Shown: positions 9,051-59,790 of the stretch, piece by piece
How the letters are laid out: each line of letters starts with the position of its first letter
Position numbering within the stretch: position 1 is the first letter of the stretch
Assembly (NCBI GenBank): GCA_964016885.1
Contig: OZ024744.1
Coordinates: forward strand, 41,106,001-41,170,000
Length of the DNA stretch: 64,000 nt
Origin: Eledone cirrhosa
Taxonomy: Eukaryota
Direction: 5' to 3'
Position numbers and translations under genes: made by a program
The notes under the pieces: model-generated
Seen by the model: only the letters and a program-made list of their open reading frames with translations
The model's database searches: none
Told to the model about the DNA's origin: nothing

Positions 9051-9342
9051 TATATGAAATATAAGAATCAAAGAACTGTTCAAAACATTATTGTGCTTAC
9101 AGCTGTTTCCTCCAAACCGAAGTGTGTACTGCCACTCTAAATTCTGTAATGAATGTTGACCCACAATGTTTGAATATGTATCAATGTTTGAATATGTGTT
9201 GGTGTGTCTCTCGGCTGAAGGGGAGGTCATATAACTGTCCATGCATTAATAAATTGCTCCGAAGAATCCAAACCTCGGTTTGGAGGAAACAGCTGTAAGC
9301 ACAATAATGTTTTGAACAGTTCTTTGATTCTTATATTTCATA
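9051..9342. repeat. Inverted repeat (~70 bp arms, 9051-9120 and 9274-9342); pseudo-LTR pair
   Basis: atatgaaatataagaatcaaagaactg..cctccaaaccga vs tcggtttggagg..cagttctttgattcttatatttcatat. Confidence 0.85.
9254..9301 (+). ncRNA. Hammerhead-like motif with CCGAAGA core
   Basis: tgct-CCGAAGA-atccaaacc(tc)ggtttggag-GAAA-cagctg-TA/agca; palindromic stem III CAGCTG. Confidence 0.6.
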
Positions 9343-9350
9343 TATTTCAT

Positions 9351-9512: not shown

Positions 9513-9746
<234 letters not shown>

Positions 9747-9751
9747 TATAC

Positions 9752-10490
9752 ACAAGTGTTGACCGTATCTTCTTTACACCTACCGATGAGCCTTGAGAAG
9801 TTATGGCACCAACACAGTTTATGGTGAAACATTTTCTCCTTTGAGTTTGTCCAGGTGTTTTATAGTTATAAAGGTGGATCTGTACAATTTAATATAAGTT
9901 TCTAATTATTAGGTATTTTCCACACTTTTCGTAGACTTTATGTTCTTCACTCTAGTTGTTCTCTACCGCTCATTATTGAAAACATACCCTTTTTGTTTTT
10001 TTCTCTATATACTAAATTACATGGGGTTAACGTGAGTCTTTAACTCCATTTTTTCTTTTGATATTTTGGCTCCTAATTTCTTTGATAGTTGACCTTTTTA
10101 ATTTGAATGGTTATAGTCTGCCATTTCTAGCGGTTTCTTGATCCATTCAAGCCACTATGTACTGTCTGGCATGCATGTTTTCATTTCTCACACCATGTGC
10201 GATATTTCAGTTGTCTAAAGTATCTTTAGAAATGTTGACCATAACTTTTTACGCCTACCGACGAGCCCTGAGAAGTTATGGCACCAACACTGTTTAAGGT
10301 GAAACATTTTCTTCCTTGAGTTTGTATAGTTATAAAGGTGGATCTGTACATCTTAATTTCCCTTTCAATTATTATGTATTTTCCACACTTTTTGTAGACT
10401 TTATGTTCTTCACTTTAGTGGTTATCTACCTCTCGTAATTGAAAGCATACCCTTTTTGTGTTTTCTTCTCTATATACTGTATTATATAAA
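9752..10490 (+). repeat. ~1.5 tandem copies of a ~475 bp unit, each with a branched hammerhead-like motif
   Basis: cctaccgaYgagcc..gagaagttatggcaccaacac..ggtgaaacatttt at 9779 and 10254; downstream sequence also duplicated; (TA)n flanks. Confidence 0.8.
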
Positions 10491-10519
10491 TATAAATTAA
10501 AAAAAAATATATATATATA

Positions 10520-11605
10520 TATAAGTAGTAACACAACAATTACTTCATACTGAGAACAAATCTTTGCTCTTGCGGATCTTCAGCTCAGACTGAGAATGGT
10601 TGTATGGAGCAGGAAAAAGAGAAACAACCGAATGAATACGCATGCGCAGAAATAGTCACTTCCCCCAGGCGATAAAAATTCACGGTCGAAAGGTCTAATG
10701 GAGATAAGTGCGAATGTCCGGATTAAATTGTTCGAGTTGATTAGAATATTAGAATGTTGATGTTATTCAATCCAGAGCTTTGTAGTTATTCAAGAGGTGT
10801 TTCCAGATGTGTGGGCAACGTGAGAAAAGCTCATTTCTTGAATTTAGGCAATTGCTATTGCGTAATCTCCTCAGAATATTGATCCTTCAACAACAATGCA
10901 ACACATCCGCTGTAGTTTATGAAGCTGTGGTCATTTCCAACCGACCAAATCAACCACAGGAGGTCAAATCCTATGTGGGTATGGCAGAGGGCCGGTTTAA
11001 GGAACGCTTCCTGAACCATCAGTTGACCTTTAGATACCCGAACAAATGATCGGTCATGAAATTGCGAGCCACGTATGGTCCCTCAAAGACTCAGGTGTAG
11101 ACTACTCCATCCAATGGAAAGCTATCACTGAGTCCAAGCCATACGCAAGGGGTAAACGATCTTGCGGACTGTGCATTGAAGAAAGGGTCAATATTCTGAG
11201 GAGCTAACGCAATAGCAATTGCCTAAATTCAAGCAATGAGCTTTTCTCACGTTGCCCACACATCTGGAAACACATCTTGAATAACTACAAAGCTCCGGAT
11301 TGAATAACGTCAACATTATAATATTCTAATCAACTCGAACAATTTATTCCGGACATTCGCAGTTATCTCCCTTACACCTTTCAACTGGATTTTTGTTGCA
11401 AAGGGGAAGTGACCATTTCTGCGCATGTGTATTCATACGGTTGTTTCTCCTTTTCCTGTTCCGTACAACCATTCTCAGTCTGAGCTGAATATCTGCAAGG
11501 TCTCGGTATAGTGAACTAACTGTTGTGTTACTACTTCTACCAAACTCTTTCCATCGACTGAGTGCTCTACTACTATGGATATTACCCTCCAGTGTTCTAC
11601 CTTTA
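10520..11605 (+). mobile_element. 5'-truncated PLE (GIY-YIG fragment) with inverted pseudo-LTR at its 5' end
   Basis: CNTSAVVYEAVV..SYVGMAEGRFKERFLNH at 10885-11040; 10520-10765 is the reverse complement of ~11310-11545. Confidence 0.85.
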
Positions 11606-14565: not shown

Positions 14566-14775
14566 CCTAACTATTAGCAATTAAATAGTTTTAAAAAAAA
14601 GAATGTACTCAAGGAGCCTTCCTAAAGTCTCTGCAGAATTCTAGTATTGTCCTCAAGTAGGCTGGTTTCCCTTTGGATAAAAGAATTTATTGGTGCCTCT
14701 CATTTATATTTATATGAAATTTAATTGTTCCTTCATTGGAAAATAATTTAGTTGAGGAACTATTTTTGTTGTTGC

Positions 14776-17528
14776 TGTAGCGAAAGAGCAAACGCTCCAG
14801 CGCAGTCAGGCGAGGCTTAGGACAAGGTACGACGGTCAGGCGGTAGCAGATGACAGACGCGATGTACGCGTTAGCCACCTCCGCTCGACCTTTCAGGGAT
14901 AGGTTCCTCTCGGCCCATTTCTGGGTGAGAGAAGCCACCCTGCTCGTCACCTCGTCCCAGTTTTTGTCCGTCTGGAGGTCCGGACCGAACCAGACCCCTA
15001 GCAATTTAACCGGTCCGTCCGTCCAGCATCCGACGACGCTGTTGGACGGCATGGACCTGCCTCTCCAGGTGCCGAGCTGCAGGCCCACTGACTTTTCCTG
15101 GTTGATCATTGCTCCTGTCACCGCTTGGTATTCTCTTAGTGTAGTGCCGATCGCCTCGATGTGTTTGGCGTTCGACACCACTACGGTGACATCGTCCGCA
15201 TATGCTGACACGGATCTTCCGCATCCTAGTTCGCGCGGCACGCCCCTCAACGTCTCCAGTCTGTGCAGTAATGGCTCGAGAGCCAATACGTACAAGAGGG
15301 ACGAGACGGCACATCCTTGGCGGACCGAGCGCATGATGTTGAACGGTTCCGACAGGTGACCGTTCACTCTCACCACAGAGCAGATGTCGCTGTGCATGGC
15401 AGCGATCCAGCCTCTGAAGACGGGCCCAAAGCCAGCCGCCCTCAGGACTGCCGCTAGGTAACGATGGTCGACCCTATCGAAAGCTTTCGACTGATCTAAA
15501 TTGATCAAGGATCCACCCGTGCCAGGTTCCTTAGCTACCCTCTCTACGATGTATCGCATGAGGTGGAGGTTGTCGTGAATGGATCTGTCGGGATTGGCGC
15601 ATGTCTGCGCCTCTCCCACCAGACCACCAACGACAAGCGCCAACCTCTTTGCTAGCCCCTTGGCCAAAATCTTGAACTCTGTGTTTAGCAGAGTTATGGG
15701 CCGGAAATTATCTATGTTATCCCCCTTGTTCGGATCCTTTCTCAGCAGTGCCACCGCTCCTCGGCTCACAGAACTGGGAATTCTCCCGTTCTGTTGCCAG
15801 TTGCAATAGACGTCCGCCAAGAGGCCTCCGAACAAGTCTGGCATCTGTACGTAAAGTTCATAGGGCAGACCATCCAAACCAGGCGATTTACCACTTGTGC
15901 AGCCAGTCATTGCCTCCCTTACTTCAGCGGCTGTTATCGGCTTTTCGCAACACTTCGCCTCAGTGGCCGAGAGCTGCGGCAGTCCGTCGAGGTAGACACT
16001 AAAGTCCATCCCTCGACCCGGCCCACCGCTGCCCCCGAACTATAACTATAGTACACACAGCTAAAGCATAGTGCATAGAGATTATACTACAACACATGAA
16101 GTCAGCTAGTGTTCCCTTGAATATCAAGTATAATAAGTAAAACTCACTCGAAGTACTGGTACTAGTCAAAAATACACTACAGGAATTTTGTACTGGAACA
16201 ATCCTAGAGCCCTTGCCCTTCCCATCATTTTCCGTTTTTAAATATCTGTAGTGTTGTTATTTGAAATAGATTTGTTTATGATTTTTACAAATTTTTATTA
16301 ATAAAACATATTTAGCTGATAGAGAAGTGTCGCTGAAAAGCTTCACACATTTGCCCGGGATCGAGTAGCATGCGCCCGTCATGGTCCACCAAAGACCGGA
16401 TCGTGGCTTTGTTGCCACGACGCGCCTCCGCCACTCGAGCCCATTGAACGGCTTTCGTCCCCTCGTGTCTGAGAGCACGCACCCTTGCTCTGACAACGCA
16501 GCCTTCGTGCTTTGCATTGAAGAATTGGTCAAGGGCCAATTTCGCCGCAAGCACGTCGGTCGCAATGGCTTTGCTAAGCGCCTCGTCTAATTTTCTAACT
16601 AGTTCTCCCTCTGCTCTATTTTTCTCTATTGCTAAAGCCTTACTAAACCTAATGGATTCTATTCTAATCGCTCTTTTCAGAGCAAACCACCACTTGTTGT
16701 TGACGATGGCCCCCGTCAACGCACGCTTAACTAGTTCGCTAATCCGGTCTCTGTAGGCCTTGCGCGCTGGTAAGGACGCGTTTAGCTTCCAGTAGCCGGG
16801 TCCTCGTCTATGAAGCCTATCTAAGTAAAGCACACAGATCACGAATTTGTGGTCCGTCTAGCTGACTATCTTGAATTGTGGACAGCCTATGTTAGACCTA
16901 TCTATTTCCCTACAAAATACTCTATCTAGATATGATCTGGATGACCCTATGCGATTTGTCTAAGTCCATATTGGCACATTCGGGAAATCCAATCGGTACC
17001 TGTCAGACAGTTCAAAACGCCTGAGCAGGTTGGTGAGGCTCTTGCACCCTCCACCCCTATCCGCTAATCCCACACAGTCCCAGCGTGCATCTAAGATCCC
17101 GTTCCAGTCGCCCACTAACACTAAAGAGCGGGACGTTCCAAGAAAGGTCTCCAGACGCCGGAAGAAATCAGGCCGCCCTGCTCCTGTCGGGGCATAGACG
17201 GCCACTAGCCTGAAAGCTTGCCGTCTCCGCTGGTCACGTCCAGCACCACCAGCTTACCCTCTGGGTCCAGGAAGATGGCCCGTATGGCGAGATCCAAACC
17301 TCTCCGAAAAAGCACAGCAACTCCTCCCCCCGATCCAGGACGGCTGGGAGATGCGTACACATCGTAGCCGCCGAAGATCGGTGCGAAGGCCCGTGCTTCG
17401 GAGATTCTGGTCTCGCTAATGGCCACTACATCTATGTTTAGTGACCTGAGGTCGTTGAGCAGGTGACCCTGCTTCCATGACGACCCCAAGCCACGCGCAT
17501 TTATGCTGCCTATTCTGAATGAGGTCAT
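14776..17528 (-). pseudogene. LINE ORF2 (APE endonuclease + RT), disrupted
   Basis: Frameshift at ~17205, stops near 16960 and 16860, ~285 bp foreign insert at 16041-16324, truncation at 14776. Confidence 0.9.
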
Positions 17529-17563
17529 GTTTAAAATAGAGTCGAAAAGATGGGAAAGACCAC

Positions 17564-19666
17564 TTACCGTACTTTTGGTAGAGGAGGGATGGTTTTTACA
17601 TCCCTTTTCACTTGATCGTCTGGTGTAGGGACCGTTGAATCGTCCCTTCGGCTGGTCGTCGGCTCTTCTATGAGAATGTCTGAATATACTCTTCGATTGA
17701 TAGTTCCTCCTAGGTCCCTGAAATCACCAACTGCGTTGGGGAATTTCGTTTTATTGTTTGTGCATTGTTTCTGTGCTATTTTTAGCAGTCTTATGTTAGT
17801 TGGCCTTTTGATTGGTGCTGGTATTATGTAGTCGTGTTGTGAAATGTCTGTGTGTTCAATTATGTAAGTCATTAGTTTCTTGTTGTGTGTATTTATTGCC
17901 GTGCATTTGTTTTTCTGGGTGTGGGGTGTGGTTCTGCTATTTTCTTGTCGTTGTTGCTGGGTGTGTGTGTTTTGTTGTTGTGTTTGCGATGTTGGTGCTT
18001 GTGGTGGTGGTGTTGAAGGTGTTGTTGGCGGTGGGGTTGTCGCCGGTGGCGATGGTGGTGCTAGTGTGGGTGGTGATGGTGTTGGTGGTGTTGCTGCTGT
18101 GGGTCTCTTTGCAGTAGACTTTACCCTTTTCTCATTTCTTTCATCCCTTTTCAAAGGCGACGATGCGCTGCTTCTGCGTTTGTGCCTTCTTACGACCTTT
18201 TGCCATCCCTCTCCCACCTCACACTCCATATCTGATTCTGTGAGGTCGGGGAGGGGTACCAGCTCCACTCTTTCACTTGTTGTTGTTGGTGATGTTTGCA
18301 CTGGAGTCTCTGTTGCAGCTGCATTTGGTATTGCTGTTGTTGTTGTTAATATTTCCACTGCTGCTGCTGTTTTTGATTTCCGTGGCGTGGGTATGGGTGC
18401 CACGGATCTATCGTTCCTGGTTGCCGCTTGTCCTGTTGCTGGTAGCAGTGGAGCCGGTTTCGGAAGGAGGGGGGTTTTCTCCTTTCTCAGGGTCTTCTCG
18501 TTGCAGAAGGCCCTGAGGTGAGTCTTCGATCCACAGCGAAAGCATTTCGGGCGTTTTCCCTCAACACTTATGGGCAGTTGAGTGCCGTTATCGAAGTCTA
18601 TCACATCCGGGATAGCTTCGATGCACTCCTGGTTGGTTTGGATTAGCATCTCAATGGAGGTGCCGACCCAATCTTCTCTTACTTTTTTCTGTACTTGCAG
18701 TACAGTTGTTTTGTCCTCGATTCCGACGAGGACAGACGCGGCCAGCCAAGAAGGGGCCATCCCGGGGGGCACGTGGGTCAGTTTGACCCTCACAATTTTT
18801 TGCCCGCAGTAGGAGGGCACCAACACCATTTCCTCGCTCCTTAGGGTCACTACGGATTGGGCCTTTGCCTCATGGGGTGTGGCAAAAAGTACGTCTACGG
18901 TGGCATATTTTTTGCCTCGGGTGATGTGCGTTTTCCGCTGCCACACAGACCCCAAGGCTTTTTGTATTTGAGCCTCTGTGGCTCTTTCCACCCTACGGGA
19001 TTTTGTACTTACTGTACGGTACGTGACCGTACAGTGCTGTTGGGTTTCGAAAAATTTTTCCGCTGCCTTGCAGATTGCTCGGTGTCCAGTCTTTGTCACC
19101 ATCTTCTTCGCTTCCTCTAATTCCTCATTTGTTATGAGGATTGTTTCCAAGTTTTTCGCAATCCCTGCAAATGAGATTGGTTTTTCTTTGCTGCTGTTGT
19201 TGTTGTTGTCGTCAGAGCTGCTGTTACTTTTGTTGTTGCTGCAGATACTACGACTACTGCCTCCGCCGCTGTTGCTGTGGTTGTTGTTGGTGTTGCTGCT
19301 GCTAATGCTGTTGTTGTTTATGCTGCTGGTGATGCTGTTGCGGCTGCTACTGTTGTTTTCATTATCACTGTTGCTGTTGTTATTACGGCTGCTACTGCTA
19401 TTATTCCTGACGTCAGACGAATGAACTGGATTTTCGTATTTCCCGCACACCTGTTTCGTCGCTGTCGTGGTCGTCGTGGAGAAACCTTGCACGCTTTGCA
19501 CGAGACTTTTCTTTTCTTTCGTCGCTTGCGAAAGAGAAGGGAGGGAGAGAGACACATTTAAAGAAGGGAGGGAGAGAGACAATCTTCTCTCTGCTGTAGT
19601 GATGATTGAGGAAGAAGAAGACGGAATGAGTGGGAGTGACCTATGAAATTTCTTTTTCGTAGCCAT
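17564..19666 (-). CDS. LINE ORF1p (gag-like), ~700 aa, uninterrupted, CCHC zinc knuckle
   Basis: CFRCGSKTHLRAFC (Cx2Cx4Hx4C), SFAGI and GEGWQKV motifs typical of Tx1 ORF1; stop lies ~35 nt before the ORF2 ATG; first ATG at 19666. Confidence 0.85.
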   Translation of the reverse strand: MATKKKFHRSLPLIPSSSSSIITTAERRLSLSLPSLNVSLSLPSLSQATKEKKSLVQSVQGFSTTTTTATKQVCGKYENPVHSSDVRNNSSSSRNNNSNSDNENNSSSRNSITSSINNNSISSSNTNNNHSNSGGGSSRSICSNNKSNSSSDDNNNNSSKEKPISFAGIAKNLETILITNEELEEAKKMVTKTGHRAICKAAEKFFETQQHCTVTYRTVSTKSRRVERATEAQIQKALGSVWQRKTHITRGKKYATVDVLFATPHEAKAQSVVTLRSEEMVLVPSYCGQKIVRVKLTHVPPGMAPSWLAASVLVGIEDKTTVLQVQKKVREDWVGTSIEMLIQTNQECIEAIPDVIDFDNGTQLPISVEGKRPKCFRCGSKTHLRAFCNEKTLRKEKTPLLPKPAPLLPATGQAATRNDRSVAPIPTPRKSKTAAAVEILTTTTAIPNAAATETPVQTSPTTTSERVELVPLPDLTESDMECEVGEGWQKVVRRHKRRSSASSPLKRDERNEKRVKSTAKRPTAATPPTPSPPTLAPPSPPATTPPPTTPSTPPPQAPTSQTQQQNTHTQQQRQENSRTTPHTQKNKCTAINTHNKKLMTYIIEHTDISQHDYIIPAPIKRPTNIRLLKIAQKQCTNNKTKFPNAVGDFRDLGGTINRRVYSDILIEEPTTSRRDDSTVPTPDDQVKRDVKTIPPLPKVR

Positions 19667-19882
19667 GTTGTTTTTTTTATTTAAAATAAATATTGGGTAC
19701 AAAACCCCAATAAGCAGTTATTTAACCCCGAAGGGCCAAATAACAGGCAGAAAGACCCCTCTCACGAGGAGGAGGGAGTTTTTGTCTACAAGTTCGTTAA
19801 AGTTTTAAACAATTTACAATTGTTATAGTGTTCAAAATTTACAATACCTTACAGAGCCGAGCCTCAGTCAACCATAGCATTC

Positions 19883-19914
<32 letters not shown>

Positions 19915-19918
<4 letters not shown>

Positions 19919-20975
19919 GATACAGTAATGGACTACAAATTTCAGAAGTCCCATTTACTGCTGAAATGGAAAACACAGAAAAAGCAAAGCAGGTAAAAGT
20001 AACTGCAAAGAAAGAACTGCTACAGAAACTGGCTAAGAAATGGCAAGAAAAGCCTCTGTATGGAAAATACCCAGAGCGAGCTAACAATCCTGATTTTGAC
20101 AAAACTTTAACCCATCAGTGGTTGGCATCCTCTGGACTGAAATCGGAGACTGAAGGACTGATTATATCAGCACAAGATCAGTGTCTGCCAACAAAAAATT
20201 ACCAAGCCAACATAATAAAAAATGGGTGCAGCCCATTATGTCGTGTATGCAAAAAACAACCAGAGACCATTGACCATATAATTTCAATGTGCAGTTCTAT
20301 AGCTCCAACCGAATACCTAAACAGGCATGAAAGAGCTGCACAATACATACATTGGATAATGTGTAAGCATTTTGACCTGCCCCATCAAAAGAATTAGTGG
20401 GAGCATCAACCACCTCCCATACTTGAAAAAGATCACATCTCAATCTTGTGGAACTTTAGCATCCAAACAGACCGAAAAATGGATGCAAATAGACCTGATA
20501 TAATATTGAAGGACTTTCAAAGGAGGGTATGCCTGCTAATTGATATGTCTGTTCCAATAGACAAAAATGTATCTATAAAAACATTTGAAAAATTGAGCTA
20601 GTATAAGGACCTGGAGATAGAAATTGGAAAAATGTGGAAATTGAGAACTAAAACAATACCAGTGGTTGTAGGCGCTCTGGGAATGATACCTAAGGGGTCT
20701 AATGATTACATATCGCAAATCCCAGGAAACCCGGGTATAGGAGAAATACAAAAGATAGTACTAATGGGAACTGCCCATATACTAAGGAAGATTCTGTAAA
20801 TATAGGTACATCACAAGTCTAAACACTAAAGATGCATGTGTGAATATGTATGTTCTTTCTTGAACATGGCGGACCTTGTTGTCTCTTGAGGTCACTGGTT
20901 GTGACTTGGTGATAACTCGTATGAACATAAAGCAAGGTAAATGCAACTATAATAAAAATAATAATAATGATTTCT
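19915..20975 (+). mobile_element. 3' part of an R4/Dong-like RLE non-LTR element
   Basis: WLASSGLKSETEGLIISAQDQ..CRVC..ETIDHIISMC..RH, then RPD..ID..K and P.VVGALG; (AAT)n on both sides. Confidence 0.88.
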
Positions 20976-20977
20976 TT

Positions 20978-22029
20978 ATTAACCACAAGGGTTTACATAA
21001 AGTAGACATTAAGGACAGTGCAGGACAATACAGTACGGTACAAATGGGCATTTCTGCGTGTAAAAAACAAAAACAGAGAATGTAACAAAAAATAACAATG
21101 AAAAATTCCCCAATAGGGGGAGACTTCGGAGGGACATTTGTGGCGAAAGCCCATAAAAGGCCACAATGACCCTGACCACCAAGGCAAGTGCCCTCTCCCA
21201 GTTTTCCACCTTTAATTTACAGATATATACTCAGAGTAGACCCATTCACTCGGGCCATTCTTGCTTCTCTCACCCATCTTTCAACAAATTGCTGGGAAGA
21301 GAGCACTTCCCTCTCTACTCTGATTTTCCTTTTCAAATGAAATTTGAAAAAGTCAATCAGAGCATCACCGAAGAGGTAAGTGCTCGTCTTCAGCCCTTTC
21401 AAACGTGTACACCATACTATTCTCTTTCGCCATGGCCACCAGACAGATAAAAACTGCCTGCCCTTGCCGGCTAAAGGAGGAGGGCGGGGCAATCCTCACG
21501 ATGGACTCAGATGATAGCCGGATCCGTCCTAAACGCGACAGCAGGTGTTCGACATAAACCCACAAGTCAGCAATTTTCGGACACTGGACGAGTGCGTGCA
21601 GGACGGTTACGTCGCCCTGCGCGCATCTCGGACATGCCCGGCTGACGGCACCTCCATGCCTGTAGAGTTTATCCCGAACTGGCAAGGCTCCTCGGTAGCA
21701 CTACCAGGCCAGAGATTTCTGGAAGTTCTCCATAGGCCCTGGCCCGAAAGTTCTTCCGAAGAGATTGGCTAGTTGATTTTCGTCGACGCCTAGAGTTTCC
21801 CCAAATACGTCGTCGCTCTTCCCCTCCACTAATCCTCTATAGAACGCCGAGGTGGAGTTTCCACCGATCACATTGCCCGATTGGTCGAGGGCTGTGAGCG
21901 CCTGAAGACATTTCAGTCTCCAAGCGCTCCCTCTCGGTCTTCGCTTGACCCAGGACTGCACATTCGTCAAGGAAACGAGCTGGGGAAATACGTGTCTAGC
22001 AAACGGCGTATTTACCCAGCTCGTTTCCT

Positions 22030-22030
<1 letters not shown>
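20978..22030 (-). mobile_element. 5'-truncated Tx1-type LINE 3' end
   Basis: PVRDKLYRHG..CPRC..TVLHALVQC zinc finger; AATAAAGAAAT 3' end running into (ATT)n. Confidence 0.88.
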
Positions 22031-22064
<34 letters not shown>

Positions 22065-22069
<5 letters not shown>

Positions 22070-23132
22070 TATGTTCCACAAGAGGAGTGATGTCCATAGA
22101 CTCTACTTAAGGAGATCTGAGGGTGGAAGAGGTCTTATCAGCATAGAGGACTGTGTTCAGATGGAGAAAAACAACCTACACAAATACGTGACTGATAGTA
22201 AGGAGCCAATGCTGAGAGCTGTACTGAAGGAGAGGACAATAGGCCAGAGGATGTCCAAGGAGGAAATAACATCAAGGAGAAAGAGCAGCCTTCAGGAAAA
22301 TCCCTTCATAGTATCTTCTTTGAGAAAACTGAATTTAGAGATCCACAGACATGGAGCTGGTTGAAAAGAGGAGACCTTAAAAAGGCTACAGAAGGAATGT
22401 TAATGGCTGCGCAGGAGCAGGCCCTCAAAACGAAGTGGTTGAAACACCACACTTACAAGGAGGAGGCTATCCCACTGTGCAGGATCTGTGGAGAGAGAGA
22501 GGCGACTGTCGCTCACTTTGTATCCGAGTGTAAACACCTAGCCCAGACTCACTATAAGGGCTGGAGACATGATGTGATGGGCAGGGTGATCCACTGGCAC
22601 CTGTGCAAAGTAAACAATTTACCACATTCTGAGAAGTGGTATGAGCATAAGCCAGAGTCGGCGATAGAGAACGATCAGGTGAAGGTGCTGTGGGATTTTA
22701 GGATACAGACGGACAAGAAACTGCAACACAATAGACCTGACCTGGTGGTTTTGGACAAAGAAAAAAGATCGTGCCTGATTGTGGATGTGGCCTGCCCATT
22801 CGACACGAGAGTGCAAGAGAAGGAGAGGGAGAAGAGGGAGAACATTAACCGATACCAGGACTTAAAGTGGGAGGTAAAAAGGATTTGGAACTGCTATGAA
22901 GTCAAAGTAGTCCCGATTGTCATAGGCGCACTAGGGACTATCTCAAAAAGTTTCCAGGGATGGTTAAAGAAAATTGGCCCCTTCACGCTTTTTGGAACGC
23001 TTCAAAAGGCATGCTTGCTGGGAACAGCAAGAACGCTCCGATACGTCCTGAATATCTGAGGCTGCAGGTAGTGGCTTGATATTCATCTCAACAAACTTTC
23101 CAGTTAACTAACATCAATGACTGAGACTCAAA

Positions 23133-23135
<3 letters not shown>
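22065..23135 (+). mobile_element. 5'-truncated R4/Dong-like element with intact RLE domain
   Basis: LYLRRSEGGRGL; TEGMLMAAQEQAL; CRIC..H..C; WRHD; NRPDLV..IVDVACP..E..Y; PIVIGALG; (AAT)n flanks. Confidence 0.92.
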
Positions 23136-23211
<76 letters not shown>

Positions 23212-23242
23212 AAGAAGAAGAAGAAGAAGAAGAAGAAGAAAA

Positions 23243-23611
23243 AAGATCGTGTCTGATTGTGGATGTGGCCTGCCCGTTCGACACGAGAGTGCAAGAGAAG
23301 GAGAGGGAGAAAATTAACCGATACCAGGACCTAAAGTGGGAGGTGAAAAGGATTTGGAACTGCCATGAAGTCAAAGTGATCCCGATTGTCATAGGCGCAC
23401 TGGGGACTATCTCCAAAAGTTTCCAGGGATGGTTAAAGAAAATCGGCCCCTTCACGCTTTTTGGAACGCTTCAAAAGGCATGCTTGCTTGGAACAGCAAG
23501 AACCCTCCGATACGTCCTGAATATCTGAGGCTGCAGGTAGTGGCTTGATATTCAATCCAACGGACTTTCCAGTTAACCAACATCAATGACTGAGATTCAA
23601 GGAATAACAAC

Positions 23612-23650
<39 letters not shown>
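23243..23650 (+). mobile_element. Second, shorter 3' end of the same R4/Dong-like family, in tandem
   Basis: Near-identical to 22760-23135; follows (AAT)n(AAG)n and ends in (AAT)n. Confidence 0.9.
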
Positions 23651-23838
23651 TGTTTCTACGTTAGGCACAAGGCCAGCAATTACCCAGTGCATTACTGGTA
23701 CTTTATTTTATCGACCCCGTAAGGATGAAAGGCAAAGTTATCCTCGGCGGGATTTGAAATCATAATGGCAAGGGCCGTAACTCTAAACGTCAAAGCATGG
23801 CGTCCGACCCTCTCCCAATACTGCCAATCCACCGCCCT
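23650..23838 (-). mobile_element. tRNA-derived SINE
   Basis: Minus strand: A-box-like tggcagtattgg, B-box-like atttcaaatcc, central gcctttcatccttacggggtcgataaaataaagtacc, ATT tail. Confidence 0.8.
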
Positions 23839-23839
23839 C

Positions 23840-24612
23840 GATTTCTTTATTGGCTACAAAGGCTGACATCAAGAAAAACATTACAGACGGCTCAGGACGG
23901 TACAGGACGGTACGATGTGGGTTTTGTGCGTGTAAAGATTTTTATTATTTTTATACGAAACGAAAAAGAAAAATGCCATAGAAACATATATATATATAAA
24001 CAATAAAAATGAAAATTCAAACAATGAAAAATTCCCCAATAAGGGGGAAACCGCCGAGGGTTACTCATGGCGAAAACCACACAAAAGACCACGGCCACCC
24101 TGACCACCAGGGCAAGCGCCCTCTCTCAATTTGTTCCCATTCCTCAAACTACAAGTGTATATTCAGAGCTACATTCTCGTACATTCACCCACCTTTCAAC
24201 AACCTTGCTAGAAGGCAGCACTTGCCTCTCCGCCCTACTTTTCCTCTTCAAGTGAAACTTGAAAAAGTTAATCAGGGATTCGCCGAAGAGGAAAGTGTCT
24301 GTCTTTAACCCTTTCAACCTTGTCCACCACACAATCTATTTCGCCATGGCCACCAGGCAGATGAAAACCGCCTGCCCTTCCTCCTCGAAGGAAGACGGCG
24401 AGACCATCTGCACAATGGACTCAGTCGATAACCAGATCGGTCCTACACACGACAGCAACTGTTCGACATAGCTCCACAAGTCAGCAATGCTCGGGCACTG
24501 AACGAGTGCGTTCACAACAGTTTCATCACTCTGCGCGCATCTTAGACAAGCTGGGCTGACGGCACTTCCGTTCCTGTAGAGCTTATCCCGAACCAGCACC
24601 ACTCCCCGGATA
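23840..24612 (-). mobile_element. Tx1-type LINE 3' fragment
   Basis: VRDKLYRNG..CLRC..ETVVNALVQC, WWTRLKGL; ends AATAAAGAAAT. Confidence 0.87.
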
Positions 24613-27300
24613 AAGTTAAAAGAAATGACAGCTAAGGTAAACAAAGTCATCCCATACCTTGAGGCGAAGAGCCTTCACTAAATCAACAACATCCTCAAAG
24701 CAACCGCAAATGTGGTGAAACAATTACTTGGTATAAAAACGAGAGGAAACAACAAACAAGAAATATCAGAACCTTAGTGGAAGAAACGACTGAATGGTCA
24801 AATCAAGGAAATGAGATAAGACATTGGAAAGGTTGAGTCTTTACTGAATGGAACATTACAAAACATAGACACTAAAGATAGATTGAAAATAAAATACAAC
24901 ACTAAGGGAAAAAAGTTAAATGTTATCATAGAGGAACTAAAGCAACACATCGTAGCATATGAGAACAGAGTTAGTCAGTATAGACAGAACCACACGTTTG
25001 ACAACAACCAGAAGATGTTATTTGATCAGGTTGAAGGGAAAGAAAGAAGTAACGACCTGATCCCTGAACAGACTAAGGCATTTTGGAGAGGAATATGGGA
25101 GCAGGGTGTTGAATATAATAGTCAGGCAGTGTGGATTGAGACAGTTAAAAAGGAGATTAGTGAACAAGCACACCAACAACCTGATTTGAGTATCACAGCT
25201 GAAACTCTTAAAAAACAGGCCAAAAAACTAACCAACTGGAAATCACCAGGCCCAGATGGTGTGCAAGGATATTGGACAACAGATATAACACCTCACCACC
25301 CATAACTGACAGCCATGTTCAATGACTGCTTAGTATTGGGTAAAGTACCAGAGTGGTTGACAAAAGGTACCACACTCTGGTAATGAAAGACCGAATCAAG
25401 GATAATGGGGTTACCAACTATAGGCCTATCACATGCCTGTCCATAATGTGGAAACTGCTAACAAGCATTGTGTCTGAGGAAATTAACTATCACCTCTACA
25501 TAAACAACTTATTGCCGGATGAACAGAAAGAAGTTCTTTGGTACAAAACACCAGTTACTTATTGATATGATGGTAATAAGGAATTGCAAGAGGAAGCATA
25601 CTGGTCTTGACATGAGATGGATAGACTACAAGAAGGCATTCGGCATGGCTCCTCATTCTTGGATAACCAAAAGCCTAGATATCTTCAAGGTAGCAAACAA
25701 CATCAGACGGCTATTAAGTAAAAGTATGAAGTTCTGGGAAATAGAGCTAACATCAGCTGGAGAATCCTAGGGAGGCGTGAAGATCAAGAGAGGTATCTTC
25801 CAGGGAGATAGTTTCTCTCCTTTGTTGTTTGTCCTTATCTTCATACCCTTGTCCCTCATATTGCGAAAAGTGAAAGCAGGTTACAAGCTGGGAAGAGGAG
25901 AGCTTACCATCAACCACCTCATCTTCATGGACGATCTTAAACTCTTTGGCAAGAGTGAGAAGGAGTTGGATGTACTTGTTGACACTGTTCGTATATTCAG
26001 CAATGATATATGTAAGGAATTTGGTGTTAATAAGTGTGGAGCCCTAGTGAAGAAGAGAGGTAAATTGAACAGAAGCAATGGAAACCCGGCTACCAATGGG
26101 TGAGATGATAAAGGATATCGACACTGAGGTGGGATACAAATATTTAGGTGTTCTGGAGGCAGATGGCATCAAGAACAAAAACATGAAGGAATTGATAAGA
26201 TCTGAGTACACAAGGAGAGTAAGGAACGTATTAAAATCACATCTAAATAGTAGGAATGTCACAAGTGCAGTAAATTCCCGAGCTGTCTCTATTATTAGGT
26301 ACAGTGTGGGAATTCTGAAATGGAATGTTGCTGAACAAAAAGAAATGGATAGGAAGACTAGGAAGCTATTGACTATCTACAACATGTTCCACAAAAGGAG
26401 TGATGTCGATAGACTCTACTTAAAGATATCTGAAGGTGGAAGAGGTCTTATCAGCATAGAGGACTGTGTTCAGATGGAGAAAACAGTGTGCACAAATATA
26501 TGTCTGACTGTAGGGAGCCAATGCTCAAAGCTGCACTGAAGGAGAATACAATAGACTAGGGGATGTCTACGGAGGAAATAACAACAAAGCGGAAGAGCAA
26601 TCTTCTTGAAAAATCGCTTTATAGCACCTTCTTTAAGAAAACAGAATTTAGAGATCCACTGACATGGAGCTGGTTGAAAAGAGGAGACCTTAAAAAACCT
26701 ACAGAAGGAATGCTAATGGCTGCACAAGAGCAGGCCCTCAGAACAAAGTGGGTGAAGCACCATATTGACATGGAGGAGGCTAGCTCTGTGAAGACGAGAG
26801 AGAGGAAACTGTGGCTCACATTGTATCCGAGTGTAAACACCTAGCCCAGACTCACTATAAAGACTGGAGGCATCATATAATAGGAAAGGTGATTCACTGG
26901 CATTTATTTTATGCAAACTAAATAATTTACCACATTCTGAGAAATGGTATGAGCATAAACCAGTCGGTGATAGAAAACAACTAAGTTAAGGTGCTATGGG
27001 ATTTTAGACAAACAAGAAATTAGAACATAATAGGCTTGACCTGGTGATTTTTGACAAGGAAAAAAATTGTGTCTGATTGTAGATGTAGCCTGTCCCTAGA
27101 GTGCAAGAAAAGGAGAGGGAGAAAATTAACCGATAGCAGAATTTAAAGTGGAAATTGAGATTGAAGAGTTTTCAAGAATGATTTAAAGACCCTTCAAAAG
27201 GCATGCTTGCTGGGAACACCAAGAACCCTCTCATACATCCTGAATATCTGAGGCTGCAGATAGTGGCTTGATGTTCATTTGAACAAACTTTCCAGTTAAA
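24613..27300 (+). mobile_element. Decayed R4/Dong-like element (RT + RLE)
   Basis: NWKSPGPDGVQGYW; YRPITCL; WIDYKKAF; RGIFQGDSFSP; HLIFMDDLKL; YKYLG; 3' end matches 23000-23110. Confidence 0.92.
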
Positions 27301-27319
27301 TAACCAAAAGAGGCAAGAA

Positions 27320-28285
27320 CATTTAGGCAAAAACTGGACATGGAATGAGGCATACCGTTAGAAAATCAATTGCTACACAGCTAAACTATATCTGTGAAGA
27401 TCAAAGCAAAGAAACTCCAAACAGAGGAACTAAACTGTGAATGGAAGGCAAAACCACTACATGGCAGATTCCCAGAACGACTTTCTCACAATGATATCTA
27501 TCAGCATGGTTCACTATCCTGGCCCAGAAGTGCTGGTTTGAAAGCAGAGACTAGGGGACCCTTAGTCGCTGCACAAGACCAAACTCTAAACACTCGGGCC
27601 TATAGACACAGAATAGTGAAAGAGGGGACTAGCGCACTATCCAGAATATGCTACAAATGTGAAGAAATGGTAGATCATGTTATCTCAGGGTGTCCAGAGC
27701 TGGCAAAAATTGACTATATTGAAAGACACAACCGCATTACCAAATATGAGCACCGGATGCTCTGCCGCTCTCATGACATCCAAACTGCTAATAAATGGTA
27801 TGAACATCAACCAAAAACAGTCATGGAAAAGGGCAACATATCCCTCTTATGGGATATACCTGTGATAACCAACGGAGAAATTGCTGCCAACAGACCAGAT
27901 ATCATCATACAAAACAAAACAGATCAGATATGTAGTCTTATAGATATTTCCTTACCAGCTGACAAGAATATATTTATAAAAACAATGGAAAAACACAAAA
28001 TACAAAGACCTGGAAGTAAAGATCAACCACATATGGAGGATGACCACAAACACTATCCCTGGGATAATAGGAGCACTAGGATTAATACCCAAATCCTCAG
28101 ACCAGCACCTTAGTCCCTTCTCTGCAAGATCAGAACATATGAGCTACAGAAGATCAGGCTACTAGGAACAGCACACATTTCCAGATGAGTTCTCTCTCTA
28201 CAATGAAAACATCTATTGCCAGGTTCAAAGCCTGAACCTGGCAATAGAGAAACAGAACTGAGCTAAACGCAATAGCACAATAATA
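27320..28285 (+). mobile_element. 3' fragment of another R4/Dong-like family
   Basis: WKAKPLHGRF; GLKAETRGPLVAAQDQTL; ERHN; ANRPDIII; LIDISLP. Confidence 0.85.
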
Positions 28286-35755: not shown

Positions 35756-35837
35756 ATATACGGCTCAGAAAAATCTCTTTCTTAGAGCTATTTTATTGTA
35801 AGAGACTATTTTGAGTTCCTAACTGAATATATACATT

Positions 35838-35912
<75 letters not shown>

Positions 35913-35960
35913 TATGTATGTATACGTACATACATATATGTATACAGACGTACAGTAGCA

Positions 35961-36018
<58 letters not shown>

Positions 36019-36183
36019 CACATATGCATACAGGTACACATACATATATGCACGCATCAGTTTAGCCGACGTTTATTATAACGCAGCTTTGTTCGCATGT
36101 TTGTCAACAAACCGAACAGCCTGAATTTATGCCATACGGTGTTAAGGCAACCACGTCACCTTTTTGTTCAACACTGACACAGG

Positions 36184-36228
36184 AACGGTGTACTAGTTTC
36201 AAGCTTGTTAGCTATCATCAGCACCGTT
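36184..36228 (-). ncRNA. Minimal type-I hammerhead ribozyme, array copy 1
   Basis: aacggtg-CTGATGA-tagc(taacaa)gctt-GAAA-ctag-TA/caccgtt; perfect 7 bp stem I, palindromic CTAG. Confidence 0.9.
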
Positions 36229-36463
36229 TACCCATCTGCCAGATAGTTGAACGTTCGAAAGTATATACTTTCCTTATGAAAATTAACGGTTGAGCAGCCT
36301 AATTTGCATATTGAGTGAGTTAAATCGGTCAGGCATACCGAAAACGACAAGTTGAAAAAAAATGAAAGCGAAATTTCATTTCTCACTCTTAGTATGGCAC
36401 TTACTTAAATGTAAGTATGTATGTATACGTACATACATATATGTATACAGACGTACAGTAGCA

Positions 36464-36545
<82 letters not shown>

Positions 36546-36710
36546 CACATATGCATACAGGTACACATACATATATGCACGCATCAGTTTAGCCGACGTT
36601 TATTATAACGCAGCTTTATTCGCATGTTTGTCAACAAACCGAACAGCCTGAATTTATGCCATACGGTGTTAAGGCAACCACGTCACCTTTTTGTTCAACA
36701 CTGACACAGG

Positions 36711-36755
36711 AACGATGTACTAGTTTCAAGCTTGTTAGCTATCATCAGCACCGTT
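36711..36755 (-). ncRNA. Minimal type-I hammerhead ribozyme, array copy 2
   Basis: As copy 1, with a G-U pair in stem I (catcgtt). Confidence 0.9.
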
Positions 36756-36990
36756 TACCCATCTGCCAGATAGTTGAACGTTCGAAAGTATATACTTTCC
36801 TTATGAAAATTAACGGCTGAGCAGCCTAATTTGCATATTGAGTGAGTTAAATCGGTCAGGCATACCGAAAACGACAAGGTGAAAAAAAATGAAAACGAAA
36901 TTTCATTTCTCACTCTTAGTATGGCACTTACTTAAATGTAAGTATGTATGTATACGTACATACATATATGTATACAGACGTACAGTAGCA

Positions 36991-37040
<50 letters not shown>

Positions 37041-37205
37041 CACATATGCATACAGGTACACATACATATATGCACGCATCAGTTTAGCCGACGTTTATTA
37101 TAACGCAGCTTTGTTCGCATGTTTGTCAACAAACCGAACAGCCTGAAGTTATGCCATACGGTGTTAAGGCAACCACGTCACCTTTTTGTTCAACACTGAC
37201 ACAGG

Positions 37206-37250
37206 AACGATGTACTAGTTTCAAGCTTGTTAGCTATCATCAGCCCCGTT
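37206..37250 (-). ncRNA. Minimal type-I hammerhead ribozyme, array copy 3
   Basis: Core intact; one stem I mismatch (aacgggg). Confidence 0.8.
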
Positions 37251-37406
37251 TACCCATCTGCCAGATAGTTGAACGTTAAAAAGTATATACTTTCCTTTTG
37301 AAAATTAACGGCTGAGCAGCCTAATTTGCATATTGAGTGAGTTAAATAAGCCAGGCATACCGAAAACGACAAGTTGAAAAACGTTCAACTATCTGGCAGA
37401 TGGGTA

Positions 37407-37451
37407 AACGGTGCTGATGATAGCTAACAAGCTTGAAACTAGTACATCGTT
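37407..37451 (+). ncRNA. Minimal type-I hammerhead ribozyme, array copy 4
   Basis: aacggtg-CTGATGA(37414)-tagctaacaagctt-GAAA(37435)-ctag-TA/catcgtt; predicted cleavage after 37444. Confidence 0.9.
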
Positions 37452-37616
37452 CCTGTGTCAGTGTTGAACAAAAAGGTGACGTGGTTGCCTTAACACCGTA
37501 TGGCATAAATTCAGGCTGTTCGGTTTGTTGACAAACATGCGAACAAAGCTGCGTTATAATAAACGTCGGCTAAACTGATGCGTGCATATATGTATGTGTA
37601 CCTGTATGCATATGTG

Positions 37617-37720
<104 letters not shown>

Positions 37721-37874
37721 TGGTACTGTACGTCTGTATACAGATATGTATGTACGTATACATACATACTTACATTTAAGTAAGTGCCATACTAAGAGTG
37801 AGAAATGAAATTTCGTTTTCATTTTTTTTCAACTTGTCGTTTTCGGTATGCCTGACCGATTTAACTCACTCAAT

Positions 37875-37882
37875 ATGCAAAT
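37875..37882 (+). promoter_or_regulatory. Octamer motif ATGCAAAT in the array unit (ATTTGCAT in each inverted copy)
   Basis: Exact octamer ~80 nt upstream of the HHR core; function not shown. Confidence 0.35.
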
Positions 37883-37955
37883 TAGGCTGCTCAGCCGTTA
37901 ATTTTCATAAGGAAAGTATATACTTTTTAACGTTCAACTATCTGGCAGATGGGTA

Positions 37956-38000
37956 AACGGTGCTGATGATAGCTAACAAGCTTGAAACTAGTACATCGTT
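37956..38000 (+). ncRNA. Minimal type-I hammerhead ribozyme, array copy 5
   Basis: Identical to copy 4; predicted cleavage after 37993. Confidence 0.9.
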
Positions 38001-38311
38001 CCTGTGTCAGTGTTGAACAAAAAGGTGACGTGGTTGCCTTAACACCGTATGGCATAAATTCAGGCTGTTCGGTTTGTTGACAAACATGCGAACAAAGCTG
38101 CGTTATAATAAACGTCGGCTAAACTGATGCGTGCATATATGTATGTGTACCTGTATGCATATGTGTATATGCATATATATATATATATATATATATATGC
38201 ATGCTACTGTACGTCTGTATACATATATGTATGTACGTATACATACATACTTACATTTAAGTAAGTGCCATACTAAGAGTGAGAAATGAAATTTCGTTTT
38301 CATTTTTTTTC

Positions 38312-38378
<67 letters not shown>

Positions 38379-38815: not shown

Positions 38816-38901
38816 AGGTAAGCAAGAAAGTGTTGGTAAAATCCAGTACTTCAGTATGCGGATAGGGAGCACTCAACGAAGATATAAATTCCGGAGTTAT
38901 A

Positions 38902-39171
38902 ATAGTGACGAAACATAAGTCAATGCATGAACTCATAATCATTTATTTACTGCTATATATATTTCGATGATAGCCATTGAATGGCTATGACCTCATCAGG
39001 CTTTTGTCCGAAGGCTCTGAACCCATCAATACCAAAAACACAGAGCTGGCATATCTAAGAACTGAGTAACTGCCTGATGAGTTCATAGCCATTCAATGGC
39101 CATCATCGAAATATATATAGCAGTAAATAAAGGATTATGAGTTCATGCATTGACTTATGTTTCGTCACTAT
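38902..39171. repeat. Inverted pseudo-LTR pair with an HHR on each arm (38949-39003 -, 39069-39124 +)
   Basis: actgc-CTGATGA-gttcatagccatt(c)aatggccatcatc-GAAA-tatata-TA/gcagt and its mirror copy. Confidence 0.87.
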
Positions 39172-39192
39172 ATATATATATAAATATATATA

Positions 39193-39635: not shown

Positions 39636-39788
39636 TTTTATTATATATATTTCAAGGGCAACCAAGGTAAATTATGGTGCGCTTTCATCAGCATTACAAA
39701 TTTGGTGCGCTTTCATCAGCAATACAAATTTGGTGCGCTTTCATCAGCAATACAAATTATGGTGCGCTTTCATCAGCAATACAAATTT
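39636..39788 (-). ncRNA. Family-B HHR whose 5' half is repeated four times in tandem (28-29 bp unit, 39669-39788)
   Basis: (atttgtattg-CTGATGA-aagcgcacca)x4 followed by one ..tggttgccctt-GAAA-tata-TA/taata. Confidence 0.65.
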
Positions 39789-39960
39789 GTTTTATAAATA
39801 AATATTGACATACCCTGAAAAAAGACAACCTCAACGGTTGAAATTCGCTGGATAGTGGAGATACTTGAGGGTGCTACAAATTTGTGAGTGAGTATGCAAA
39901 TGATTGTCGGAAAAATTGAAAAAAACAACGGTTTATTTAAATTAAACTGTTGGAAGTAAA

Positions 39961-59538: not shown

Positions 59539-59599
59539 ATCTATGGTTATATATGTGGGTATACATTGCTTATTTTGTTCTCCATCTATTATTAATATA

Positions 59600-59790
59600 T
59601 TGTTTCTACTTTTGGCACAAGGCCGGCAATTACCCCAGTGTATTACTGGTAATTTATTTTATCGACCCCGTAAGGATAAAAGGCAAAGTTAACCTGGGCA
59701 GGATTTGAACTCTAAACCATGAAGGGCCCTAATTCGTTGCTGCAAAGCATGGCATCAGACCCTCTACCGATACTGCCAATCCATCACCCT
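59600..59790 (-). mobile_element. tRNA-derived SINE
   Basis: Same family as 28288 and 35140. Confidence 0.8.

What the first reader, a model, noticed from the sequence alone, without database searches (positions are those of the whole stretch)
9752..10490. Second tandem repeat with a non-canonical four-way-junction hammerhead-like fold
Seen at 9776-9858: acacct-a-CCGATGA-gcc(ttgagaagttat)ggc-acc(aacacagtttat)ggt-GAAA-ca(..)tg-TC/c-aggtgt. Stems I and III and a GUC triplet are in hammerhead register, but the core is CCGAnGA and stem II is replaced by two adjacent 3-bp hairpins. The second copy, 475 bp downstream, keeps both hairpins with changes only in loops but has lost most of stem I. Inference: a structural HHR variant in another retrozyme or pseudo-LTR family. 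The helices are short, so chance pairing is possible.
Basis: partly seen in the sequence, partly recalled or inferred. Interest (0 to 1): 0.7.

Follow-up and report, generated by a model that had tools for sequence, protein, structure and literature searches.

The report
Retrozyme hammerhead with long loop-flank helix
The repeat is a worn copy of a many-copy, non-coding mobile element in an animal genome, and each unit carries a self-cutting hammerhead RNA motif; the proposed four-way fold is poorly supported, the more likely oddity is a large loop that pairs over about 19 bases with the sequence just upstream, and cutting has not been shown.

Summary
The described bases are present, and the type I hammerhead motif at 9776-9858 is beyond chance. 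Two public runs of one sample show a many-copy family of head-to-tail units of about 476 bp, often ending in (TA)n. That is the retrozyme / non-autonomous Penelope pattern. Both window copies are decayed.

The four-way junction is not favoured. Its helices show no covariation. Relatives often read C at position 11.1 (8 and 5 contigs), which breaks the A-U pair of the second hairpin and gives the canonical G10.1-C11.1 pair of a three-way core.

The 20 nt upstream of stem I (9755-9774) are complementary to the 30-nt loop II over 19 positions (-20 kcal/mol; 0 of 2000 shuffles as good). The commonest family letters repair this helix, and it spares every core element. Best reading: a three-way hammerhead with the known U4C variant, a 3-bp stem II, and an unusually long flank-loop II pseudoknot in place of the loop-loop contact. 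Rivals: the helix is an off-switch, or a four-way/double-pseudoknot fold forms. Cleavage, expression and covariation are untested.

The parts
9623..9749 (.). (TA)n/(TACA)n microsatellite on the left; probable insertion target
   Evidence: role inferred
9752..10229 (+). Repeat unit 1 (period 475-476 bp), non-coding; about 30 nt that relatives carry near 10013 are missing here
   Evidence: head-to-tail joints 10229->9754 and loose ends at 10013
10230..10490 (+). Partial unit 2 (about 0.55 unit), 84% identical to unit 1 over 271 columns
9755..9774 (+). 5' flank strand, complementary to loop II: 9755-61 with 9810-16 (7 positions), a 1x3 internal loop, 9763-74 with 9795-9806 (12 positions, one U.U)
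   Evidence: family letters 9816 T and 10232 G repair the two private breaks
9776..9782 (+). Stem I, 5' strand; A at 2.1 in both window copies, G in some relatives
   Evidence: 10257 A>G in 2 contigs (X1) and 1 contig (X2), and G in one joint contig
9783..9789 (+). Catalytic core CCGAUGA (U4C variant)
9790..9825 (+).
9826..9851 (+). GAAA, stem III (9829-31/9848-50, a U.U 2x2 loop, 9834-36/9843-45) and the GUC triplet; predicted cut after 9851
   Evidence: 9834 T>C in 40 and 39 contigs turns U.G into C-G; cut site from hammerhead consensus, not shown
9852..9858 (+). Stem I, 3' strand
10214..10230 (+). 7-bp hairpin directly upstream of the flank strand of copy 2; role unknown
10231..10329 (+). 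Second hammerhead copy: flank strand 10231-49, core CCGACGA 10258-64, region II 10265-10300, GAAA 10301-04; an 11-nt deletion behind 10324 removes the 3' strand of stem I and leaves GUA plus 3 chance pairs; probably dead
   Evidence: relatives carry the 11 nt (table 4)
10491..10522 (.). A-rich and (TA)n run on the right, followed by a fold-back Penelope-like remnant

Best explanation
A decayed 1.55-unit insertion of a many-copy, non-coding, head-to-tail retroelement (non-LTR retrozyme / non-autonomous Penelope type), with one type I hammerhead per unit. Shown: the family, the tandem joints, the (TA)n ends, the hammerhead motif and the flank-loop II complementarity. Inferred: tandem transcripts are cut after GUC (9851) into monomers of about 0.48-0.51 kb, which may circularise and are copied back into (TA)n by a Penelope RT/endonuclease in trans. 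Inferred: the active core is the ordinary three-way junction (stem I 7 bp, stem II GCC/GGY 3 bp, a long stem III that allows cutting as a monomer). Inferred: the flank-loop II helix folds first during transcription, stays at least in its proximal 12 positions, and ties the ends of stems I and II together as an unusually long pseudoknot. It would stand in for the loop-loop contact and offset the weak U4C core and the 3-bp stem II. The two window copies are probably inactive or weak.
For: 695 and 676 contigs laid in X1 and X2 (one sample); joints going back 476 and 474; (TA)n loose ends behind 10054, 10064 and 10488. No coding or Penelope ORF remnant in the unit. Common family letters improve the hammerhead: 9834 C (775 of 782 depth, 40 contigs; 822 of 837, 39 contigs), 10257 G (2 and 1 contigs), 10300 C (104 of 125, 8 contigs; 59 of 66, 5 contigs). 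The last change keeps 10.1-11.1 paired (G.U to G-C) in the three-way model only. Flank duplex -20.0 kcal/mol, 0 of 2000 shuffles; copy 2 -17.8, 0 of 2000; best of 383 downstream 24-mers -13.9; 0 of 8 other hammerhead-like motifs of the window show such a duplex. 9816 T (21 and 18 contigs, all depth) and 10232 G (17 and 15 contigs, about 90%) repair it. It covers 19 of the 30 loop II bases and none of the core or stem strands. The flank hairpin (-19.0) is more stable than the whole unknotted four-way fold (-16.2 to -17.6). About 40% of natural hammerheads are predicted to use a stem I-stem II pseudoknot, and U4C is a viable natural variant thought to be rescued by outside contacts (PMC3088659). 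Canonical metazoan helices I and II are 6 and 4 bp (PMC4209133); here they are 7 and 3. Penelope-like remnants and minimal hammerheads occur in the same window.
Against: No two-sided covariation in any helix: only two whole copies could be read, and hid 264 variant rows and gives no linkage between positions. No cleavage or expression data. The state at 9825 in contigs laid on copy 1 is not visible, so the family frequency of C11.1 is known only as at least about a fifth of depth (my estimate). A straight 19-pair helix (about 53 A, from recalled A-form rise) is probably too long for the 6-nt return linker 9817-22, so it must kink or partly open. The predicted circle folds with the ribozyme unformed and is only mildly structured (z -1.66). 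Both window copies share A2.1, T9834 and T11.1, so their common template was already imperfect. No sequence link between the unit and any Penelope element of the window was found. The three bases left unpaired by the flank helix (C9807, A9808, C9809) are exactly those that the four-way fold needs.
Confidence: 0.55

Rival explanations
1. Same element and same three-way hammerhead, but the flank-loop II hairpin is an off-state. It protects the monomer or circle from being cut again, as complementary sequence does in viroids and plant retrozymes, and it must open, or a dimer must form, for cleavage.
For: The circle's minimum-energy fold holds this hairpin and no hammerhead. With the hairpin enforced, the GAAAC region pairs with the 3' strand of stem I. 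The return linker is short. Plant retrozymes, viroids and some mussel retrozyme circles are predicted to have blocked ribozymes (PMC7229834).
Against: The helix sequesters no core base and no strand of stems I, II or III, unlike a typical block. It precedes every copy in the tandem and would fold first, yet stems I and III are kept in good order in the family. ViennaRNA cannot model the knotted state, so its folds are biased towards this reading.
Confidence: 0.2
2. One reading: helices GCC/GGC and ACC/GGU replace stem II. In its strongest form, each 12-nt loop pairs with one half of the 5' flank (a double pseudoknot), with 9761-64 as linker.
For: Both helices are Watson-Crick in both copies. 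Chance level is 18 to 1338 of 20000. Without the flank and with the core open it is the best fold for copy 1 and for the U11.1 version. The break in the flank helix falls at the junction of the two hairpins. The two 18-nt halves share a 7-nt end, as after an old duplication.
Against: 10300 T>C in 8 and 5 contigs makes A.C at the core-proximal pair, and no 9808/10283 A>G row is among the 40 best-supported rows (list cut). GGCG to GGTG is a CpG-type change (CpG observed/expected 0.53 in the element), so the A-U pair may be a by-product. With C11.1 the best core-open fold is three-way. The flank also pairs with G9805, G9806 and C9810, which this model leaves to chance. No natural hammerhead of this build turned up in the paper searches.
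Confidence: 0.15
3. The hammerhead of this subfamily is a dead relic. U4C, A2.1.C1.1 and the long insert in stem II were fixed in a template that spread without needing to cut, and the flank helix is a left-over of a local inverted duplication.
For: Both window copies share the damaging letters. Fold-back duplications are common around the locus (I1, I2, I17). Some Penelope clades spread without canonical hammerheads (PMC8557442). One joint contig also has U at position 3 (table 5c).
Against: The commonest family letters improve stem III and the flank helix, and those seen at 2.1 and 11.1 improve stems I and II. The flank helix has a 1x3 loop, G.U pairs and a U.U mismatch, unlike a fresh inversion.
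Confidence: 0.1

Closest known systems
Metazoan non-LTR retrozymes (Cervera and de la Pena 2020, PMC7229834, passages and section 14 read; Li, Clavereau and Pollet 2026, 10.64898/2026.07.22.740005, parts 1-2 of 5 read)
   Same: Non-coding head-to-tail units, one type I hammerhead per unit, low GC (34%), many copies, Penelope-like elements in the same genome. Mussel retrozyme hammerheads also lack the usual loop-loop bases.
   Different: The unit (about 476-510 bp) is longer than the 150-450 bp first reported, though inside the 51-972 bp range of the 2026 preprint. U4C core, 3-bp stem II with a 30-nt loop, long stem III and a 19-position flank-loop II helix. Cleavage and circles are not shown.
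Pseudoknotted hammerheads (Perreault et al. 2011, PMC3088659, passages and section 8 read)
   Same: A Watson-Crick helix links the stem I region to the stem II region; short stems II and core variants, including U4C, occur naturally.
   Different: The pseudoknots described in the passages read are four to six pairs; here the complementarity runs over 19 positions in two segments, in an animal retroelement.
PK hammerhead / pistol-like hammerhead (Zhan et al. 2024, PMC11300833, parts 1-2 of 6 read; PDB 8YDC)
   Same: Sequence 5' of helix I pairs into region II; G10.1-C11.1 is kept.
   Different: There the 6-bp pseudoknot comes from the loop of a separate helix IV with an A-rich triplex linker and replaces helix II. 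Here the flank strand is not in a hairpin loop, only one base separates it from stem I, and stem II keeps 3 pairs.
Minimal hammerheads of Penelope pseudo-LTRs (Cervera and de la Pena 2014, PMC4209133, passages read)
   Same: Type I topology, partial tandem arrangement, (TA)n flanks (insertion bias per PMC8557442).
   Different: Those have a tiny palindromic helix III and cut as dimers, as do several motifs elsewhere in this window. This one has an 8-position helix III and no ORF remnant in the unit.

Membership tests
Type I hammerhead ribozyme | Core CUGAnGA | tested here: not met
   CCGAUGA and CCGACGA. U4C is a known natural variant, so it is filed as a variant. No C>T row at 9784/10259 among the 40 rows shown; one joint contig has U4.
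Type I hammerhead ribozyme | GAAA, A15.1-U16.1 pair and NUH triplet | tested here: met
   9826-9829, 9850, GUC 9849-51
Type I hammerhead ribozyme | Helices I, II and III around the core, open at helix I | tested here: met
   Copy 1 passes the descriptor with one mismatch at 2.1-1.1; copy 2 does not; family letters improve the helices
Type I hammerhead ribozyme | Tertiary contact between helices I and II | tested here: inconclusive
   Long flank-loop II complementarity; its coexistence with the core cannot be computed here
Type I hammerhead ribozyme | Match to an Rfam hammerhead model | tested here: not met
   The minimal hammerheads elsewhere in the window are also missed at gathering threshold, so the test is insensitive.
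Type I hammerhead ribozyme | Site-specific self-cleavage | not testable with these tools
   No RNA run was listed
   0 of 9 pairs vary in two copies; 10300 T>C breaks 9808-9825 in 8 and 5 contigs with no compensating row shown (table cut)
Non-LTR retrozyme | Head-to-tail tandem units of a few hundred bases | tested here: met
   Period 475-476
Non-LTR retrozyme | One type I hammerhead per unit | tested here: met
   9783 and 10258; the second is damaged, so this locus fails the 'two complete motifs' rule for an active copy
Non-LTR retrozyme | No protein coding | tested here: met
   Six-frame translation is full of stops; no tblastx hit below E 0.3 in the window
Non-LTR retrozyme | Many genomic copies | tested here: met
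   695 and 676 contigs laid at 80% or more in one sample of organism A, which is not shown to be the window's species
Non-LTR retrozyme | Expressed as linear and circular monomer RNA | not testable with these tools
   Only contigs of runs of unrecorded kind were available
Pseudo-LTR of an autonomous Penelope-like element | Sequence continuity with a Penelope RT-endonuclease ORF | tested here: not met
   No ORF remnant in the unit and no match to the hammerhead regions of other elements in the window; only 64 kb were searchable

The most novel reading that the evidence does not exclude
A natural hammerhead in which stem II has been duplicated into two short hairpins, giving a four-way catalytic junction. 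Each loop is held by one half of the upstream flank (a double pseudoknot), or the RNA switches between this fold and the long flank hairpin to turn cutting on in multimers and off in circles.
Probability: 0.15. Interest if true: 0.72.

Novelty: new variant of a known kind. Interest (0 to 1): 0.4.

Why it matters
Retrozymes are known from many animals, so the element itself is modest news. The ribozyme is less ordinary. It is built in a way that standard descriptors and Rfam miss (C at position 4, 36 nt between the core halves), so hammerhead counts in animal genomes may be low. If the long flank helix activates a weak core, it widens the known ways of docking stems I and II. If it blocks the core, it addresses an open point raised for metazoan retrozymes: how circles avoid cutting themselves again. 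Either can be tested with a 110-nt RNA.

Tried and rejected
No whole genome is held for this window, so copies could not be collected and aligned. Rfam: 0 matches at gathering threshold in the window; 12 weak matches in 9700-10520, none a hammerhead. Pattern scans for relatives: 17 viral loci and 3 metagenome loci were GC-rich chance matches without the flanking hammerhead stems or any blastn likeness; family-specific patterns gave 0 in viral contigs and 0 in prokaryote genomes. No RNA holder was listed. No look-alike among earlier findings by sequence or place. My early idea that copy 2's deletion arose between two TATAG words, with U at 1.1 as the old state, was dropped: relatives carry C there (table 4). 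Pfam named only a GIY-YIG and an RVT_1 domain among 6 neighbouring ORFs and nothing useful for 4 homologues. The homologue search gave 20 unnamed proteins of about 700 aa, so the host taxon is not established; 'cephalopod-like' is my impression from repeat content only. Circle folding is not clearly better than shuffles (z -1.66 plus, -1.32 minus). Lunse et al. 2017 (PMC5785218) is not held, and Weinberg et al. 2015 was not looked up; variants in those papers or their supplements could already include this build. For the satellite CYDV-RPV hammerhead I saw only a title in a reference list.

Full report
Setting. The window is AT-rich, microsatellite-rich animal-type DNA full of retroelement remnants. 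Several remnants are Penelope-like: tblastn links them, one has a GIY-YIG domain, and 20 full-length relatives of one RT fragment are 686-727 aa; the one I read has RT motifs and a C-terminal endonuclease-like end (motif names recalled). No whole genome is held. The host is not identified; 'cephalopod-like' is only my impression.

Observation. Copy 2 lies 475 bp downstream and lacks 11 nt of the 3' strand of stem I. A type I descriptor that allows C or U at position 4 passes 7 cores in the window, including 9783 but not 10258, against 2 in 30 shuffled windows. The hammerhead motif is therefore real, although Rfam misses it. The two abutting hairpins are weaker evidence. They arise in 18 to 1338 of 20000 shuffles depending on the null, none of their pairs varies, and at 16 substitutions in 155 sites elsewhere in the unit about one pair of copies in four would keep 12 chosen bases unchanged. 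The free fold of 9776-9858 is not four-way.

The family. Two runs of one sample of organism A held 5-7% of the sampled words, so they are relatives, not this locus. Laid at 80% likeness, 695 and 676 contigs fit. Joints go back by 476 and 474 bases, so units lie head to tail. Loose ends run into (TA)n behind 10054, 10064 and 10488, and the window's element is itself flanked by TA runs. Relatives carry the 11 nt missing in copy 2 and about 30 nt missing near 10013. The unit has no coding remnant. This is the pattern of non-LTR retrozymes (PMC7229834, passages and section 14; 10.64898/2026.07.22.740005, parts 1-2 of 5) and of Penelope-type insertion into microsatellites (PMC8557442, passages). 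Mobilisation by a Penelope protein is inferred; no sequence link to a Penelope element was found in the window.

What the variants say about the fold. One search shows 40 variant rows and hides 264, and it gives no linkage between positions. Among the rows shown, 9834 T>C (40 and 39 contigs, about 99% of depth) turns U.G into C-G in stem III. 10257 A>G (2 and 1 contigs) pairs 2.1 with C1.1. 10300 T>C (8 contigs, 104 of 125 depth; 5 contigs, 59 of 66) puts C at 11.1. That last change gives the canonical G10.1-C11.1 pair if stem II is GCC/GGY, and an A.C mismatch if the second hairpin is real. No compensating A>G row at 9808 or 10283 is shown. GGCG to GGTG is a CpG-type change, and CpG is depleted in the element (observed/expected 0.53). 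The matching row at 9825 is not shown, so C11.1 is common but its overall share is unknown. No C>T row at position 4 is shown, so C4 is probably more than a private mutation, but one joint contig has U at positions 3 and 4. U4C is a natural variant that lowers activity in vitro and still supports viroid infectivity (PMC3088659, passage).

Folding with 24 more upstream bases gives a long hairpin between 9755-9774 and 9795-9816 in both copies: 7 positions, a 1x3 loop, then 12 positions. The duplex scores -20.0 kcal/mol (0 of 2000 shuffles as good) and -17.8 in copy 2 (0 of 2000). The best of 383 downstream 24-mers scores -13.9, and 0 of 8 other hammerhead-like motifs in the window show such a duplex. 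Across the two copies 46 of 49 cells of the three-way-plus-flank structure are paired, with one one-sided change and no two-sided change. The two breaks private to one copy are repaired by the common letters 9816 T and 10232 G; the U.U at 9768-9801 seems to be the family state. [quoted passage not shown]

How it most likely works. A tandem transcript folds the flank-loop II hairpin first. Its 20-nt loop presents the 5' strand of stem I, the core and GCC. When the 3' half is made, stems III, I and II close around the core, and the proximal part of the long helix ties the ends of stems I and II together, as shorter pseudoknots do in about 40% of the hammerheads surveyed in PMC3088659 (passages). 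Helices of 7 and 3 bp are close to the canonical 6 and 4 (PMC4209133, passages). Cutting after GUC would release monomers of about 0.5 kb that may circularise and be copied into (TA)n. All of this is inference. Its weak point is geometric: six bases (9817-22) must return along up to 19 pairs, so the helix must kink or fray. The window's copies share A2.1, and copy 2 has lost stem I, so both are probably weak or dead.

Rivals. (1) The hairpin is an off-state. The predicted circle holds it with the ribozyme unformed, and blocked ribozymes are predicted for plant retrozymes, viroids and some mussel circles. But the program cannot fold pseudoknots, and the helix spares the core. (2) The four-way fold, at best as a double pseudoknot. 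The three bases the flank helix leaves unpaired are the three this fold needs, and the two 18-nt halves share a 7-nt end. Against it stands C11.1. (3) A dead relic with a chance fold-back; the direction of the common family letters argues against this.

Comparison and novelty. It works like a metazoan retrozyme with a type I hammerhead. It meets the sequence tests for that family (tandem, non-coding, many copies, one motif per unit) but fails the strict CUGA core, and cleavage and circles are untested. It resembles the PK hammerhead in having a 5' flank that pairs into region II, but lacks helix IV (PMC11300833, parts 1-2 of 6). It is not a non-circular permutation (PMC10085705, part 1 of 8 and passages). 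Eight paper searches, judged from listings and the passages named, showed no natural four-way-core hammerhead and no flank-loop II helix of this length. PMC5785218 is not held, Weinberg et al. 2015 was not looked up, and no supplements were read, so an earlier description is possible. I also saw passages of PMC6155905, PMC6765202 and PMC3185516. Verdict: a new variant of a known kind, interest 0.4. The four-way/double-pseudoknot reading keeps about 15% and would deserve about 0.7.

Noticed in passing
window 1947 (+), 38550 (+), 5300 (-), 52677 (-): Four minimal type I hammerheads (CUGAUGA, long stem II, 7-bp stem I, short helix III that is palindromic in three), two of them downstream of Penelope-like endonuclease remnants. 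None reaches an Rfam gathering score.
   Followed up: partly
window 35828-38376: A separate tandem and inverted array with five copies of another hammerhead (36221-, 36748-, 37243-, 37414+, 37963+): U.U at 10.1-11.1, 4-bp stem II, CUAG palindrome in helix III. No blastn likeness to the studied unit.
   Followed up: partly
window 39650-39789 (-): The 5' half of a hammerhead (stem I strand, CUGAUGA, start of stem II) is repeated about four times at 28-29 bp in front of one GAAA half, so local duplication inside hammerheads does happen in this genome.
   Followed up: no
window 38898-39176: Inverted pair of hammerhead-like motifs (39074+ and 38999-).
   Followed up: no
window 9514-9625 and 9051-9344: A 112-bp near-perfect palindrome and a 76-bp inverted repeat, each beside TA runs, just left of the element.
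   Followed up: no
window 10520-11539: Fold-back with arms of about 370 bp around a GIY-YIG-type C-terminal remnant (10888-11064), directly right of the element.
   Followed up: partly
window 10220-10226 and the 9765-9771 equivalent: The family flank repeats a 7-mer at 21-nt spacing, and one contig lacks the stretch between, which would remove the distal half of the flank strand (table 5c).
   Followed up: no
window 14687-19717 (-) and 55249-61290 (+): Long ORFs of a two-ORF non-LTR element with an RVT_1 domain; L1/Tx1-like by recall, not tested.
   Followed up: no
window 19918-28113: Several fragments of non-LTR elements, with a 469-bp tandem at 22758-23650; restriction-like endonuclease type by recall, not tested.
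   Followed up: no
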